Source: an uncultured delta proteobacterium
Lineage (GTDB): Bacteria > Desulfobacterota > Syntrophia > Syntrophales > UBA2185
Assembly (NCBI GenBank): GCA_963695875.1
Contig: CAVOID010000011.1
Location: forward strand, 64,001-128,000
Direction of reading: 5' to 3'
DNA length: 64,000 bases
In this document: in pieces, positions 39,812 to 48,410 of the stretch
Numbering within the stretch: the stretch's first letter is position 1
Layout: each line of letters begins with the position of its first letter
Notes under the pieces: generated by a model
What the model was told of the DNA's origin: nothing
What the model saw: only the letters and a program-made list of their open reading frames with translations
Database searches by the model: none
Made by a program: the position numbers and the translations under genes

Positions 39812-40189
39812 ATTTACGTTTCGCTTTAATTAATCGGCATTCAGAACTATGGATTCTGGAGTGCTATCAGAGACTACAGTTCAAATGGTAATCTTCACTC
39901 CAATTTCAAAAATGAAAGTTACTGCTTTGTAGGTGTAGCAAATGCTATCCTTTTTATCTCGTTCTTCCTGAAGTCTTGTTTTTCTAATTCAGCCAATATA
40001 TTCATTATTTCATATGGTAAACATTATTTATTCCACAATGAAAGATGCCGGTAGGCTAACCGTCATTATGCAGGAGGTACTCACGATTCTAAGATATTTC
40101 GAGGGTTGTAATCATATTATTCCCGATTGTCATATCACGGCGAATGTTTATAAAATATTATGGGTCATATTTTACTGAAAGGAACGTTT

Positions 40190-41806: not shown

Positions 41807-41937
41807 TGAGACCCGTTTTTATGAAGTGGCTGGCCGGGAAACGCGAATTGATGTTGAAGATAAAGTCGTTTGTTGGCAGGGAAAAGGAACAAGCGATTAT
41901 ACACTTGAGCAATGCCGTTTCGCGTGCCACACTCGTG

Positions 41938-42827
41938 ATGAGTCGAATAGCCAAAACAATATACGGCAGGCTGAGAAAAATTGTAAAAGACTTGAGCGGC
42001 GTCGTTTCCAGCGGATATCCGTATTACAGGCATTCGCTGCCGGTGCGCATTATGCACTGGAGCAATGTTGTTTTGCTTGCCATACTCCTGATGAGCGGTC
42101 TCAATATTTTCAACGCCCATCCGGCGCTCTACTGGGGCAAGTCAGTCTTACAGCGGCGTTCCCCCCGTATTGGAGTTGCGGGGCAAAGAAGACGATGAAG
42201 GAGAAATCTCCGGCGTCACCCGCATCTTCGGCCACGAATTCGATACAACCGGATTCCTCGGCGCCTCCAGAGACGCGGCGGGAGAATTAACCGAACGTGG
42301 CTTCCCATCCTGGCTTACCATACCCGACTGAGCGATGGCTTGCCATGGCGCGGCGCTGGCACTTTTTTATCGCCTGGCTGCTCGTGGTAAACGGCATCAC
42401 CTTTGTGACCTACTCCATTGTGAGCAGGCATTTGCATCGTGATCTTGTTCCCACGAGGCAGGATTGGCGTTCGATAGGCAGATCGATTATCGATCATCTG
42501 CGCTTTCGACATCCCACAGGCGAGGCGGCCAAGCACTACAACGTACTGCAGAAATGCGCCTATCTGGTGGTGATCTTTTTCCTTCTCCCCCTGATGATCC
42601 TGATGGGACTGGGTATGTCGCCGGCGCTGGACGCATTGTTCCCCGGCTGGGTGGATATCTTTTCCGGCCGACAATCCGTAAGGACGATCCATTTCGTTGT
42701 CGCCTGGGCGCTGGTGCTGTTCGTGATCATTCACGTGTTTATGGTAATCGTCAGCGGCTTCTGGAACAACCTTCGCTCGATGATTACAGGATACTACAGG
42801 ATCGAATCGGAGGCGGATCATGAGTGA
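41938..42827 (+). CDS. Cytochrome b/b6-domain membrane protein (YdhU-like); frameshifted, start uncertain
   Basis: YRHSLPVRIMHW, SGLNIFNAHPALYWG, RRWHFF, YNVLQKCAY, RTIHF. Confidence 0.8.
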
Positions 42828-43596
42828 TGACAACAAGCTCACCCGGCGTAGTCTCATGACGCGCCTTCTTGCCGGCGCAAGCGTAGTGGTGCTTAGCGGC
42901 TGCGAAAAACTTTCGGAAACCACCTGGTTTCCCAAGGTGTTGGGTTTAGGCGAAAAGGCTACGTATAAAATTCAAAGGCTGGTCCTGCCGCGCAAAGCGA
43001 TGGCGCAGGAATTCACAGAAACCGACCTGTCACCGCAATTCCGCAGCAACGGGACATCAATGCCGAATAATCCAACATACATGGCGCTGGCAGCCAAAGG
43101 ATTTACGGACTATCGCCTCGAGGTGGGCGGTCTGGTTGAACGGCCCATGACTTTTTCGCTTGCCGACATTCGAAAGTTTCCCAGTCGCACCCAGATAACG
43201 CGCCATGATTGCGTTGAGGGGTGGAGCGCAATAGGCATGTGGAAGGGGGCGCGCCTCAGCGCGCTGCTCGAAGCAGTACATCTGAAGCCCAATGCCCGTT
43301 ATGTCGTTTTCCACTGCGCAGACCCGATGGAAGAAGATGGCAGCTCCCCCTATTACGAGAGCATCGACCTGGAAGACGCTTTTCACCCGCAGACGATACT
43401 CGCTTATGAACTGAACGGCAAACCATTGCCAATCCAGAACGGCGCACCGCTTCGCTTGCGATTGGAGCGGCAGCTTGGCTACAAAATGGCGAAGTATGTC
43501 ATGCGCCTTGAAATCGTCGAAGATTTTTCCGGGATAGCCGGGGGGAAAGGGGGTTACTGGGAAGACCAGGGATACGAGTGGTATGCCGGCATCTAA
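42820..43596 (+). CDS. Molybdopterin-dependent oxidoreductase (sulfite oxidase/MsrP-like), Tat-exported
   Basis: TRRSLM Tat motif, HDCVEGWS, NGAPLRL, GYKMAKYV, GYWEDQGY. Confidence 0.88.
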   Translation: MSDDNKLTRRSLMTRLLAGASVVVLSGCEKLSETTWFPKVLGLGEKATYKIQRLVLPRKAMAQEFTETDLSPQFRSNGTSMPNNPTYMALAAKGFTDYRLEVGGLVERPMTFSLADIRKFPSRTQITRHDCVEGWSAIGMWKGARLSALLEAVHLKPNARYVVFHCADPMEEDGSSPYYESIDLEDAFHPQTILAYELNGKPLPIQNGAPLRLRLERQLGYKMAKYVMRLEIVEDFSGIAGGKGGYWEDQGYEWYAGI

Positions 43597-43910
43597 GAAG
43601 TCCTGACAATAACACGGAGGATAGTTTCAAGAGCATCATCAACGGGTCAGGAATAGGGACATCCTTTACATATTTACATTTGCAAAATGGATCATATGAT
43701 TCTTCATGATCTATCTCAATCCCGCGGGTGAATCAAAACCGCGCCAACAATCCACAATGTAGAGCATTTCAATCGATAATCTTCATTATCCACTTCATGG
43801 TGATGTTCACACTTTGTAGGTGCTATACGTAACAAAATGGTGATTGCAACTTAGGTTTATTAGGTTCATCATCTATCTGTATTTCCTATTGAATCACAGG
43901 AAAGGAGATA

Positions 43911-45080
43911 GTGATGGACCAGATGGCCATAGAAAATTGCAGTATCGTTTCAGCGAAAGAATCCCTGCCGGAATTTGGAATCAATGATCGACAGGCAGGG
44001 TTTCTCCCATCCATTATTTTACCCGAGATCTATAGAGGAAAATCAGGGAAGGTAGTTTATCCTGCGTACACGCAGGAGGCAAAAGCTCTTCACTGGGCAT
44101 TGGATCGCCTTGCAGGCTGGGAATTGCCGGGCAAAGAGCATGTTGAGGAATATTTTCGGAGCATGTATCGGCGGAACTTCCGACCGAGGACATACGCCAG
44201 TGCTCTGACTGCTATTTACGACTTCCTCACCGGTGTCAGGGATTCGGGAAAGACCTGTCTGGAAGAGATCACCAAGCGTGACATTGAAGCTTTTATTGAA
44301 CATGAGCAGGATCGCGGTTTGATGCTATCGACGGTGCGGACGAAACTGCACTGCGTCAATGCTTTTTTGGGTTATGCGATTGACGCAGGGGTTGTCAGCG
44401 CTGATGTCCTGGCAAGAAGGATTCGCCTGAAAAAGCCCGAGACATTGCCGCGGGCCATGGATCCGGACGATGTGAAGCAATTACTCTCCGTTATCGATAA
44501 TCCGAGAGACCGGGCCATGATCATGGTTCTTTTACGGACGGGGATGAGAATCGGCGAGCTGCTCAACACCAAGATGCAGGATCTTCACCTCAGGGATCGC
44601 AGGATTGATATTTACGAGGGAGAAAAGAACCGGCTAGGGACGGGTTGTTTATCTCAGTGATGATGCGATGAGTGCTTTGAAGGCATGGCTCAAGATGAGA
44701 GACGCCTCATAAGGAGTTTCTCTTTTACGCCACAGGGCAGGAAAAGCATGTCCTATAGTACGGCCCATCTTATCTTTGAACAGTATCTCACGAAAGCCGG
44801 TCTTACCCATAAGGGGTATTCCCTTCATGCGCTTCGGCATACCTTTGCCAGTGAGCTTCTCAATGCCGGCATGCGGATCGAGTGTCTTCAGCCGTTGATG
44901 GGGCATACCTCTCTGGATGTGACACGGCGCTATGCCCGGCTCACGGACAAGACCAGGGAGGAAGAGTACTTCAGAGCCATGACGATTATAGAAAGGGGGG
45001 AGATTGATGGCCATTACCGATGCGATCATCAGGTACAGGCGTTTCTTGAAGAGAAGGAACGTCTCACCGAATACCGTTAA
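43911..45080 (+). CDS. Tyrosine recombinase A (frameshift near 44640)
   Basis: LLRTGMRIGE, GEKNR, HALRHT, LMGH, TRRYA catalytic set. Confidence 0.88.
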
Positions 45081-45901
45081 GAACTATTTGAACGGCCTGA
45101 AACATTTTGTTCTCTGGCTTGATGTGCCGATCGAGGAAGCCACATACCGGAAGATTATTGCGTATATGGATTATCTCGCTCGGCAAACGGTTAAAGCCAA
45201 AGACGATCAACTGTTATCTCAACAGCGTATGTCAGTTTTATCACTACCTCTCGGAAGAAGAGGAAGTCCCGATCGTCAACCCGGTGAAGAAGCCGAATAT
45301 CATGAAGCTCCCCAGGGGACTTCCCAAGCATCTGAAAGACGAGCAGATAGAGATCCTCTTCAAGAATCTGAAAGGGCCAAGGGATCGAGCCATGTTCATG
45401 ATTATGCTCCGATGCGGATTACGGGTGGAAGAAGTGGCCCATCTTTCCCTCGGCAACATTGATCTTAAACGCAGAATCCTGCTTATCCAGGACGGCAAGG
45501 GCGCCAAGGATCGGATTGTCTATATCAGCAACGATGCCCTTCCTGCTCTCCTGGAATATCTCAGGGTGAGACCGGCAAATAAAGTAAAAAAGGTCTTTCT
45601 GGTAGAGAAAGGGCCTCTTACCGGACAGCCTATATCCATTCGCGGCATCCAGAAACGGATGGAATATTATGCCCGCAAAACAAACCTGAGAATCTCCTGT
45701 CATCATCTTCGCCATACGATGGCCACACAGATGTTGAATGCCGACACCGATCTCTCTACGATCCAGGATCTCCTGGGGCACAACTCCATCAGAACAACGC
45801 AACGTTACTGCCGGATATCAAACCCGAAAGTACGAAGGGATTACTTCAAAGCCATGGAGGTCATCATGCAACGAACGGCTGGCAACCCAGATAATCCTTG
45901 A
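45007..45901 (+). CDS. Tyrosine recombinase B (frameshift near 45180)
   Basis: CGLRVEE, GKGAKDR, HHLRHT, LLGH, TQRYC; overlaps recombinase A by 74 nt. Confidence 0.88.
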
Positions 45902-46231
45902 CGAAAGAACAAAACTATGAAATCTTAAACACAACTTAACACATTAATATCAATAGGAAATACAGATTATGTTACGTATAGGTAGGTGAACTAACAACAA
46001 CCCCCGTTTTACCGCTTCCTTCCTATTATTCACGAATCGCCAACCTAAATGAAGATGGAGGGTTTCAACCCGTAATCGTTCATGTTGTTTAATTAATTAT
46101 TATGATATGAATTATAGAAATCTATACTTTCGGTTCTGTGAGAGCTTGGGGCCTCCCAGAGTATCTAGGCGTCTATCTCGGTTGGCGATCCGTAGCCGCA
46201 CCATATATTAAAAACAATAGCAGTTTAAGTT

Positions 46232-46857
46232 ATGAAGATTTTTAATAAAATATTAAGCTATAAAGATAAATATAATCTTAAGAAAAAATTAGTTGAAATA
46301 GAAAAACAAATAGATCACACCTATAAGCCAGCCAAGGATATTTGTTTGTCAATTGTGCAGGCAGCAGAAAATTGTAAGCTGATTTTAAGAACAGACTTGG
46401 GTTTTGAAGATAAAAAGAAAAAGACCTTGCTGAAATGTTGGTATTTTATGAGTACCTTTATTTTTTCATACATCTAACACTAAGATTAGCATTTGGTAAA
46501 TTTACAGAAACACAAATAAAGAAATTGCGAGAATATATGGGGCCGGTAATTGTTGGCGCCGCAATTGATTCATACACAATGGATTGGCCAAAAGATTTGA
46601 AAGAAGGTGTGAAAAAAGAATTTTATGACAAATTAAACCAGGCTGAGCTTGAATATTCAGAGTGCAAGGTTATATTAGACAGGGATAGACCATTTTCCGA
46701 TAATGCTCTGTTTACTAAATTAGCAAAAAATATAACAGAGCTTACGGGACATAATAATAATCCGTTAAAGATAGTAGAAATAATATTAACATCAATAGAA
46801 GAATATGCGAAAATGGATTTGAATAAGTTAGTAGATGAGGCAGCAAACACATTATAG
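46232..46857 (+). CDS. AT-rich hypothetical protein (frameshift near 46430)
   Basis: Two overlapping ORFs (46232-46477, 46435-46857) separated by an A-run; no recognisable motif. Confidence 0.55.
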
Positions 46858-46973
46858 CAAGGCAGTCGACCGGGCAGCCTCATAGCCGCCGATGAGTTTA
46901 GTCGTGTATTTCAAGTCGTAATCATCGGTAGAATATCATCACATGAATTAAGGACTTGTAGATACCGTTCTTG

Positions 46974-47943
46974 TCAAGCGAAAATTGGCTTATAATTTGG
47001 ATCATACATTTTCCCGGATTTCAGGACTCCAAAGATAACGTGAACCAGTTTCCGCATAATCGCACAGACAATCACTTTCCCATTTTTGCCTTTATCTTTT
47101 AGGCGGTTATAAAAAGCGATCATAACAGGATTGCATTGAATCGATACCAATGCCGGCATGTACAGGGCTTTCCTGAGCCGTGCATGTCCGATTTTGCATA
47201 ATCTGGGTTTGCCTTTAATAGATGATCCTGAGAGCGTTTCCTTCGGTGCGAGTCCGATGAATGCCACCATTTCACGAACATGGTTGAATTTTTCCAGATC
47301 ATCTAATTCTGCCAGGATGTGAGGAATGGTTACCTTACCAATAGCGGGAATAGAATCCAGCAAATCCTTTTTCCGTTTAAGATTTGGATTTTGTCCTATC
47401 AGATCGGCAATTTGTTTTCTGATTTTTTCAATCTCCTGATCCAAATAAGCGATATGTTCTTTGATCAAAAGAGATGACAGATTCATGTGCCGTGCTGATC
47501 CGATTCTTCTCCTGGCTTCGCATGTCGATCAGGCTATCAACCCGTCTGACCAGAGCTCTCAGGGATCTGATCTCCGGTGAAGGTGGAATCCATGCACCTG
47601 GTTTCATAGCCAGACAGAACCGGGCAATCAAGGCGGCATCAAGCTTATCCGTCTTGGTGCGAATCAGTTCACTCTGAGCAAATCCCTTGATCCGGGCGGG
47701 ATTGACAATGCTGACAATGTGGCCGGCTTCATGAAGATAGATCGCCAGATCCTCTCCATAGTTGCCCGTGGCTTCCAGACAGGCATGGACCTTTTGAATT
47801 CCCTGTTTCTCAAGCCAGAGCCTCAACGTCTCAAAACCTTCTGCCGAATTCTTGCAGGTCTTATGTTTTGTCTTCCCATCTACAAGAAGTGCGGCATCGA
47901 ATTTCTGTTTCGCAATATCTATCCCAAGAACCGATACTGACAT
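46974..47943 (-). CDS. IS110 family DEDD recombinase/transposase (frameshift near 47470)
   Basis: LGIDIAK, CLEATG, KTDKLDA (RuvC-like DEDD); SGSS catalytic Ser; LRKALYMPA, MRKL. Confidence 0.93.
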
Positions 47944-47985
47944 ATAAATACCCCTCTTAAATAAATATTACCCTTCAGTAAAATA

Positions 47986-48161
47986 GCTTCGTTCGAATCA
48001 ACCTTGCAAGTGCAAACTCATTCCCATCTGAGAAGGTTTATGATACCGTACGAGTTATTGAACAAAGCAGTGGGAAGAGGATCTACTCTACAAACCATGC
48101 TCTCTGGCATCAGGTGAAACACAGATTCACTCCTCCCATTTTACCCCGGCGTCCCAGGGTA
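47986..48161 (-). ncRNA. IS110 bridge RNA (5' stem, target-binding loop, donor-binding loop)
   Basis: LTG GTTTCACCT (48112-20), RTG TTGTAG (48088-93), LDG ACGGTATC (48042-49), RDG GCAAG (48003-07); closing stems TGGGAGGAG/CTCTTCCCA and GCTTTGTTC/GAACGAAGC. Confidence 0.85.
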
Positions 48162-48289
48162 GTTTATAACATTCATTAATCCATAAGAACACAAGGTGTA
48201 GCCGAGCAGTCATCCGGAACTTAATTCAGCAATATACATCGAGCAAAGTTTTAATCATCGCAGTTTATTCGTTCCAATACTTGAAATTT

Positions 48290-48398
48290 TATATTAACTC
48301 AGTTAATCAGAATCGTTGTCGCTTTGACAGATGTGTGGAGATGAGGAAGAAAAAAATCCTTGAGCTGCATATAATGTAGCCGTCGAAGATTATCATTG
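48290..48398 (+). pseudogene. HigB-like toxin remnant
   Basis: Frame ends AYNVAVEDYH* (DYH* C-terminus typical of HigB) immediately upstream of higA; no intact start; 5' limit approximate. Confidence 0.5.
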
Positions 48399-48410
48399 AA
48401 AAGGATTATT

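What the first reader, a model, noticed from the sequence alone, without database searches (positions are those of the whole stretch)
46960..48195. IS621-like element with a fully readable bridge RNA programmed for a distinct target
Seen: joining the ends gives donor ACGGTAT-CT-TGTG and empty target GCTACAC-CT-ACAA. The 5' non-coding end (47986-48161, ~176 nt) has a 5' hairpin and two loops. The target loop carries GTTTCACCT (7/9 match to GCTACACCT) and TTGTAG (exact complement of CTACAA). The donor loop carries ACGGTATC (exact) and GCAAG (pairs CTTGT with one G-T wobble). TTGACA overlaps the stop codon in the right end. Established: this is the IS621 bridge-RNA architecture. Inference: a natural ortholog with programmed target GTTTCAC-CT-ACAA, here inserted at a 2-mismatch site.
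Basis: partly seen in the sequence, partly recalled or inferred. Interest (0 to 1): 0.75.

Follow-up and report, generated by a model that had tools for sequence, protein, structure and literature searches.

The report
RNA-guided transposon aimed at host repeat
This is a small jumping gene of a known RNA-guided kind whose predicted guide RNA spells out both its own ends and its landing site; in these sediment bacteria it lands at one fixed spot of an unexplained repeated DNA signal, and its guide letters differ between hosts in step with that signal.

Summary
Window 46960-48195 (minus strand) is an IS621-type IS110 element with CT cores, donor ACGGTAT-CT-TGTG and empty target GCTACAC-CT-ACAA. 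Its recombinase matches IS621 (E=1.9e-84). Its bridge RNA has compensatory base pairs, and guides covary with flanks across Syntrophales orthologs (0 of 10,000 shuffles). Refinements: the '2-mismatch' site is one G:U wobble plus one mismatch, the commonest state in this family. The right donor guide continues past a 2-nt bulge. The frameshift was not seen in 8 runs' contigs and a second copy in this genome is intact, so it is likely an assembly slip.

New here: 43 of 48 ortholog insertions lie 34-36 nt from a GATTAC-N3-TTGAAA box of a dispersed, gene-module-bounding host repeat whose own enzyme is unknown. Where the repeat core changes (CACCTAC to CTCCTAC or CATCTAC), the guide changes too. 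An IS1111-type element and a two-tyrosine-recombinase transposon also sit at fixed distances from that box. Whether the box helps targeting directly, or only marks safe sites, is untested. Verdict: new member of a known kind, with an interesting target.

The parts
46960..48195 (-). IS110 (IS621-type) element including both CT cores (48194-48195, 46960-46961)
46974..47943 (-). Recombinase gene (DEDD PF01548 + PF02371), split by one extra T at 47467-47470; D9, E57, D99, D102 present, and the serine aligning to IS621 S241 is S238 in the intact C6 copy
47986..48160 (-). Predicted bridge RNA (ends not measured): 5' hairpin 48143-48160, target-binding module 48072-48137, donor-binding module 47986-48068
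48112..48120 (-). Left target guide GTTTCAC-CT
48088..48093 (-). Right target guide TTGTAG (pairs CT-ACAA)
48042..48049 (-). Left donor guide ACGGTATC
48003..48011 (-). Right donor guide AC-[TT bulge]-GCAAG, predicted to pair discontiguously with CTTGTGT
   Evidence: discontiguous pairing described in PMC11208160
48001..48002 (-). Donor-loop handshake guide GT (complement of target positions 6-7, AC)
46972..46977 (-). TTGACA -35 box overlapping the stop codon; after circularisation it would lie 17 nt from TG-n-TCTTAT (4 of 6 to TATAAT) in the left end
   Evidence: the promoter is inferred
48196..48202 (-). Left target GCTACAC (host DNA)
46956..46959 (-). Right target ACAA (host DNA)
46908..46923 (-). 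Distal box GATTACGACTTGAAAT of the host repeat, 36 nt after the core
43823..45981 (+). Neighbouring two-tyrosine-recombinase element with inverted ends, flanked by CACCTAC on both sides (another user of the same kind of site)
46016..46077 (-). Two-box unit (box ... CAGGAAG) of the host repeat
39880..40020 (-). Unoccupied full repeat site (two-box unit, GCTACAC-CT-ACAA, distal box)

Best explanation
This is an IS621-type IS110 element whose predicted bridge RNA carries guides matching its own ends and its landing site, and which likely inserts by bridge recombination at the CT inside the CACCTAC core of a dispersed host repeat. Shown by sequence: ends, cores, guides, RNA pairing, guide-flank covariation, the fixed position 34-36 nt from the repeat's box, and guides that differ between hosts in step with the core. 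Inferred from IS621 biochemistry: excision makes a circle whose joined ends form a promoter; the recombinase binds the RNA and exchanges strands at CT. Inferred: the guide evolved to read this repeat core because it is an abundant intergenic site. The link to the distal box likely arises mainly because core and box are parts of one site and insertions elsewhere are lost, not because the recombinase reads the box. This copy is likely intact in the cell (assembly slip), or else dead and served in trans by the intact C6 gene.
For: Recombinase: NF033542 243 bits over cut-off 140; IS621 structure 8WT6 E=1.9e-84 with catalytic residues aligned. RNA structure. Covariation after correcting two self-insertions: left 250 matches vs 225.5 shuffled (48 pairs), right 155 vs 137.6 (44 pairs), 0 of 10,000 each; the same on one row per RNA cluster (36 and 32 pairs). 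Handshake guide changes with guide position 7 in 4 of 52 RNAs, 3 with the matching flank. L110 and L118 inserted into their own left-guide DNA. G032: 23 of 26 free box-linked cores read CTCCTAC, none CACCTAC, and its guide reads GTTTCTC-CT. G063: 2 of 2 read CATCTAC, guide GTTTCAT-CT. Best-matching intergenic sites in this genome are already mostly box-linked: 9 of 14. The extra base was not seen in contigs of 8 runs, and 34 of 43 ortholog ORFs are full length.
Against: Box linkage of insertions (43 of 48) exceeds every background tried: 20 of 200 guide-matched sites, 18 of 66 intergenic, 8 of 15 intergenic with up to 2 mismatches; within genomes 3 of 5 vs 2 of 26 and 5 of 5 vs 8 of 24. Guide positions 1, 2 and 4 pair Watson-Crick in only 16, 24 and 23 of 43 copies, looser than IS621 in E. 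coli. No activity, circle or RNA end was observed. Orthologs are kin, so shuffle counts overstate significance. The core-variant result rests on two hosts; three other hosts gave no strict sites.
Confidence: 0.6

Rival explanations
1. Same element and guides, but insertion is also gated by the distal box: a protein bound to the near-palindromic ATTWC-N5-GWAAT box would bend, open or recruit at a fixed distance, making up for loose guide pairing.
For: Offsets are tight: 34 (1), 35 (13), 36 (29). An unrelated IS1111-type element has its best box at one offset in 11 of 11 junctions (8 above 10 bits). The tyrosine-recombinase pair has the box about 50-51 bp from its end, on either side of the box, in 15 of 30 junctions, with varied 7-mers at the crossover. 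A second layer of target recognition is reported for ISPpu10 (10.64898/2026.03.19.712850; abstract and Discussion read).
Against: A fixed offset follows automatically if core and box are one site. 5 of 48 insertions score below threshold. The two self-insertions used left-guide DNA. No box-binding protein was found. Backgrounds come mostly from one genome and cannot separate choice from survival.
Confidence: 0.3
2. The IS110 itself spreads and homogenises the core-plus-box arms by half-match or target-to-target recombination, so the repeat core follows the guide and not the reverse.
For: Left and right arms are shuffled exactly at CACCT (C6 versus C5 site). Left-end fragments stop at the target loop and run into target right arms (C7 fragment, L017, L019). 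Half-match recombination is reported for IS621 (10.64898/2026.08.31.748434; abstract only).
Against: Most repeat units are box-CAGGAAG units (60 at E<0.01) that the guide does not match. The repeat is found in genomes where this IS was not found (e.g. G005, G008, G013). The tyrosine-recombinase pair uses both cores.
Confidence: 0.08
3. The guide matches are chance or the element is not a bridge system.
For: Guides are short; no Rfam match; no DNA-level match in E. coli genomes.
Confidence: 0.02

Closest known systems
IS621 of E. coli (IS110 group) and its bridge RNA (PMC11208160; PMC11208158)
   Same: DEDD plus serine domains, about 46% identity (counted by hand from the alignment); non-coding left end with 5' stem-loop and two loops; CT core; 9-nt left target guide; discontiguous right donor guide; handshake guides; target ends in CCTAC; lands in a dispersed intergenic repeat.
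   Different: Host is Syntrophales; the left target differs; the target repeat is not a hairpin (median z 0.2); natural sites mismatch the guide more often; sites lie at a fixed distance from a distal box.
ISCro4/IS622 recombinase (PDB 9T56)
   Same: Equally close protein match (E=8.1e-84).
   Different: Its RNA and target were not compared here.
ISPpu10 (10.64898/2026.03.19.712850)
   Same: IS110 whose natural sites share a feature beyond guide pairing.
   Different: There the feature is an adjacent stem-loop with tested function; here it is a distal sequence box with no fold and no test.
IS1111-attC group and IS4321/IS5075 (as cited in PMC11187229)
   Same: IS110-family elements that aim at recombination sites or ends of other mobile systems.
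   Different: The host site here is undescribed, is not an attC-type hairpin, and has no known enzyme.
Tn554 / SE elements (PMC10214605), for the neighbouring recombinase pair
   Same: Two tyrosine recombinases, inverted ends, a short carried spacer at the junction.
   Different: No third or fourth gene seen; 7-bp spacer; position fixed relative to the box. Membership not tested further.

Membership tests
IS110 family, IS110 group (IS621 type) | N-terminal DEDD domain PF01548 and C-terminal PF02371 with conserved serine | tested here: met
   gene split in the window, intact on C6
IS110 family, IS110 group (IS621 type) | Long non-coding end upstream of the gene; ends not inverted repeats | tested here: met
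   252-nt left end versus 14-nt right end; the two ends are not complementary by inspection
IS110 family, IS110 group (IS621 type) | Short shared core, scarless junctions | tested here: met
   CT at both ends in the window, on C6 and in nearly all orthologs; homologous unoccupied arms exist
IS110 family, IS110 group (IS621 type) | 5' stem-loop plus two stems with internal loops | tested here: met
   5' hairpin weakly conserved
IS110 family, IS110 group (IS621 type) | Four guides pairing target and donor, covarying across orthologs | tested here: met
IS110 family, IS110 group (IS621 type) | Promoter formed at the circle junction | tested here: inconclusive
   TTGAC conserved in all 53 right ends found; -10 weak here, canonical TATAAT in L028; no activity data
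IS110 family, IS110 group (IS621 type) | Circular intermediate, expressed RNA, RNA-dependent recombination | not testable with these tools
   Only contigs were available; no junction join listed
Integron attC site (for the target repeat) | Bottom-strand hairpin, variable length, linked integron integrase | tested here: not met
   No folding signal in 51 sites; near-fixed 58-nt length; integrase not found in G000, G007, G013, G014, G016, G019
IS91 oriIS end (for the target repeat) | Motif lies downstream of intact Y2 transposase genes | tested here: not met
   Absent downstream of the intact genes among 30 loci; abuts only truncated genes
REP / RAYT system (for the target repeat) | Near-identical GC-rich palindrome after GTAG, linked Y1 transposase | tested here: not met
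   No palindrome; the one Y1 gene has no site closer than about 2.5 kb

The most novel reading that the evidence does not exclude
A protein-bound, non-folding DNA box in Syntrophales acts as a shared landing beacon that positions three unrelated recombinase types (an IS621-type bridge recombinase, an IS1111-type one and a tyrosine-recombinase pair) at a fixed distance. Bridge recombination would then have a natural host-factor gate on top of RNA guidance, and the guide RNA is naturally reprogrammed to follow host-specific variants of the site.
Probability: 0.25. Interest if true: 0.75.

Novelty: new member of a known kind. Interest (0 to 1): 0.42.

Why it matters
The element itself is one of thousands of bridge-RNA orthologs. 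Its value is as a natural experiment: about 50 copies give natural guide swaps in all four guides and the handshake position, and a guide that tracks host variants of its target. It also gives a handle on an undescribed gene-module repeat of Syntrophales, by showing which base three mobile elements use. If the distal box proves to gate insertion, it would be a new specificity layer for bridge recombinases, which are being developed as genome-editing tools.

Tried and rejected
Rfam scan: no match. E. coli genome blastn: no match, so the IS621 RNA could not be aligned. Target as IS91 oriIS: suggested by decayed Y2 fragments in three arms, rejected. Target as attC-like hairpin or classical integron: rejected. 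Target as REP with RAYT: not supported. Tyrosine-recombinase pair as owner of the repeat: close homologs in only 9 of 61 genomes and not found in the repeat-richest G054 and G032 at E<=1e-40; an end fragment does occur in G032 (L215). Small C5 recombinase as owner: 5 of 61. Box as IHF site or promoter: considered from recall only, not tested; the consensus scan of 46800-48400 found no promoter. Read laying: only contigs, so no RNA level, strand, ends or circle; related elements occur along the whole length in 4 RNA and 4 DNA runs, which is not evidence of expression. Survey for further CTCCTAC hosts: 6 of 201 genomes, only G032 with more than 2 sites. Guides of the IS1111-type element were not resolved. 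One search failed on a script error and was rerun. In one search three or four donor ends were mis-parsed; L149 was read from the printed context and L028.

Full report
1. Observation. The element runs 46960-48195 including both CT cores. A second copy on contig C6 is 90.7% identical over the full length and starts and ends at the same bases with other flanks; a 77-nt left-end fragment lies on C7. 19 of 61 related genomes hold a match. Record titles of protein relatives name mostly Syntrophales and unnamed deltaproteobacteria.

2. Recombinase. The two ORFs carry PF01548 and PF02371. The intact C6 protein passes the IS110 RNA-guided transposase model (243 bits, cut-off 140). It aligns to IS621 (E=1.9e-84) with D9, E57, D99, D102 and S238 on the catalytic positions (numbering counted by hand, correcting my note). 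The split is one extra T in a T-run. Contigs in each of 4 DNA and 4 RNA runs leave out one base there; these are other populations, not this genome's reads. 34 of 43 parsed ortholog ORFs are full length. The assembly is indel-prone: both neighbouring recombinase genes and a GDPD gene are split while a relative's pair is intact, and 10 of 50 assessed gene rows change frame (rough, some rows repeat a locus). An assembly slip is likely; a real private frameshift is not excluded.

3. Bridge RNA. On 34 aligned left ends, an explicit structure of a 5' hairpin, a target module and a donor module is 96.7% paired, with 12 pairs changed on both sides (0 of 500 shuffles; slid controls 42-53% paired). The structure was drawn from these sequences, so it leans towards them. 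The guides lie in the open loops. The right donor guide extends past a 2-nt bulge: AC-TT-GCAAG with donor CTTGTGT in 32 RNAs, and AT-NN-GCAAG with donor CTTGTAT in L027, L028 and L149. This fits the discontiguous pairing described for IS621 (PMC11208160). TTGAC is kept in all 53 right ends found; the -10 partner is weak here and canonical in L028.

4. Guides versus flanks. Of 76 loci, I parsed the 60 closest plus the two genome copies and left out 16 distant ones; L140 (mis-anchored), L119 (duplicate) and loci cut by contig ends were dropped. L110 and L118 had inserted into their own left-guide DNA (82-83-nt duplications), so their outer flanks were used. Left guide: 250 matches versus 225.5 shuffled (48 pairs). 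Right guide: 155 versus 137.6 (44 pairs). 0 of 10,000 shuffles reach either, also with one row per RNA cluster. Kinship inflates these. Examples: the C6 copy (AAGTAG/CTACTT), L105 (TGAAAG/CTTTCA), and L102, L113 and L116, where guide position 7, flank and handshake guide all change (handshake rule from PMC11208158). Against strict programming: in 43 complete copies the non-Watson-Crick count over 11 positions is 0:2, 1:8, 2:16, 3:10, 4:6, 7:1. The window site has one wobble and one mismatch. Flank drift after insertion may add to this.

5. What the target is. The empty site belongs to a dispersed repeat: a core WCACCTAC followed by a box GATTAC-N3-TTGAAA (24 sites at E<0.05), and a 58-nt unit of box plus CAGGAAG (60 sites at E<0.01). 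Units sit every 0.6-3 kb, mostly just past genes of the opposite strand. The strict two-box pattern occurs in 30 of 61 genomes (18 of 21 in the family; reversed control 0). Earlier scan notes describe the same repeat with no enzyme. A box matrix built from 51 non-IS sites scores above 7 bits in 43 of 48 distinct ortholog right flanks, at offsets 34-36. Backgrounds: 0.5% of random windows, 1.2% of shuffled flanks, 20 of 200 guide-matched sites; intergenic only, 18 of 66 and 8 of 15; and 9 of 14 with an empirical target matrix. The scan window was chosen after seeing the data and applied equally to all sets. A few background sites lack the box only because another element separates it. Within genomes, by strict pattern: 3 of 5 copies versus 2 of 26 free cores (p=0.02) and 5 of 5 versus 8 of 24 (p=0.01), not corrected for coding sites.

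6. The guide follows the host's core variant. In G032, 23 of 26 free box-linked cores read CTCCTAC and none CACCTAC; its element's guide is GTTTCTC-CT and its flank ATTTCTC-CT. In G063 both free sites read CATCTAC, and the guide is GTTTCAT-CT. Three further hosts gave no strict sites, and no other CTCCTAC-rich host was found among 201 genomes. The result therefore rests on two hosts.

7. Other users of the site. An IS1111-type element (two copies in this genome) sits within a few bases of the same core; 11 of 11 junctions in relatives have their best box at one offset, 8 above 10 bits. A two-tyrosine-recombinase element in the window (43823-45981) is flanked by CACCTAC on both sides. Among 30 junctions (one false hit dropped), 15 have the box about 50-51 bp from the end and 2 more within 4 bp of that; 10 of the other 13 are one end type with CACCTAC or TACCTAC, the end that faces away from the box where both ends are known. 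The box-side 7-mer is CAGGAAG (7), CACCTAC (5) or another (5). That element thus seems to be placed by the box and not by the 7-mer. It is not found in the repeat-richest genomes, so it is a user and not shown to be the owner. oriIS, attC/integron and REP readings of the repeat were tested and rejected.

8. Mechanism. Most likely ordinary bridge recombination (inferred from IS621) with a guide tuned to the repeat core; box linkage would then follow from site composition plus loss of other insertions (0.6). A box-bound factor that assists insertion is the main rival (0.3). Sequence alone cannot separate choice from survival.

9. Literature. Seen: PMC11208160 (abstract and Results through donor programming); PMC11208158, PMC11187229, PMC8138268, PMC13181058, PMC10214605 and 10.64898/2026.10.21.760802 (passages); 10.64898/2026.03.19.712850 (abstract, Discussion); 10.64898/2026.08.14.744561 and 10.64898/2026.08.31.748434 (abstracts). 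Targeting of repeats, attC sites and transposon ends, and natural reprogramming, are all in print. Eight searches listed no paper on this Syntrophales repeat or on box-positioned IS110 insertion; only listings were seen for most. No supplements were read; the ortholog target tables of PMC11208160 may already hold this family. Labels such as IHF, TnsD-like target selection and Tn916 coupling sequences are recalled, not from a call.

10. Verdict. Real and correctly read; new member of a known kind; interest 0.42, carried by the target site and the guide tracking, not by the element.

Noticed in passing
window 43823-45981: Two-tyrosine-recombinase element with inverted ends whose relatives insert about 50-51 bp from the repeat's box, on either side, and abut both repeat cores (CACCTAC, CAGGAAG) or other 7-mers; the cores could be its footprints. 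A lead for the repeat's unknown enzyme, though it is not found in the repeat-richest genomes.
   Followed up: partly
G000 C11:223982-225675 and C7:29993-31686 (L228, L243): IS1111-type element in the same core, opposite orientation, at a fixed offset from the box, with variable flanks; its guides were not resolved.
   Followed up: partly
L110:2165-2247, L118:752-835: The element inserted into the DNA encoding its own left target guide, leaving 82-83-nt duplications of the left end.
   Followed up: yes
G000 C7:38247-38323; L017; L019: Left-end fragments that stop at the target loop and run straight into a target right arm, like internal deletions.
   Followed up: partly
G000 C6:21429, C7:38323, C3:436006; L048; L052: One right-arm family is fused to a truncated IS91-family Y2 transposase gene, cut just after the RYYG motif, in several places and genomes.
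   Followed up: partly
G000, e.g. C5:74588, C5:158574, C7:92411, C9:116006: A separate palindromic repeat (GGTAG-N6-CTACC type) also contains ACCTAC but lacks the box; I did not check whether any ortholog inserts there.
   Followed up: no
L109/L110 (G061) and L101: The IS110 sits at the junction of the tyrosine-recombinase element in other genomes (nested use of one site).
   Followed up: partly
window 41898-43676: This gene module is repeated at 92% identity on contig C6 (7944-9720), near repeat units.
   Followed up: no
L198:1593-3576: Intact version of the recombinase pair (387 and 297 aa) in relative G014.
   Followed up: partly
L097, L105: Close orthologs on short contigs binned as Bacteroidia/Bacteroidales lack the box-linked flank or have a retargeted right guide; host jump or mis-binning.
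   Followed up: no
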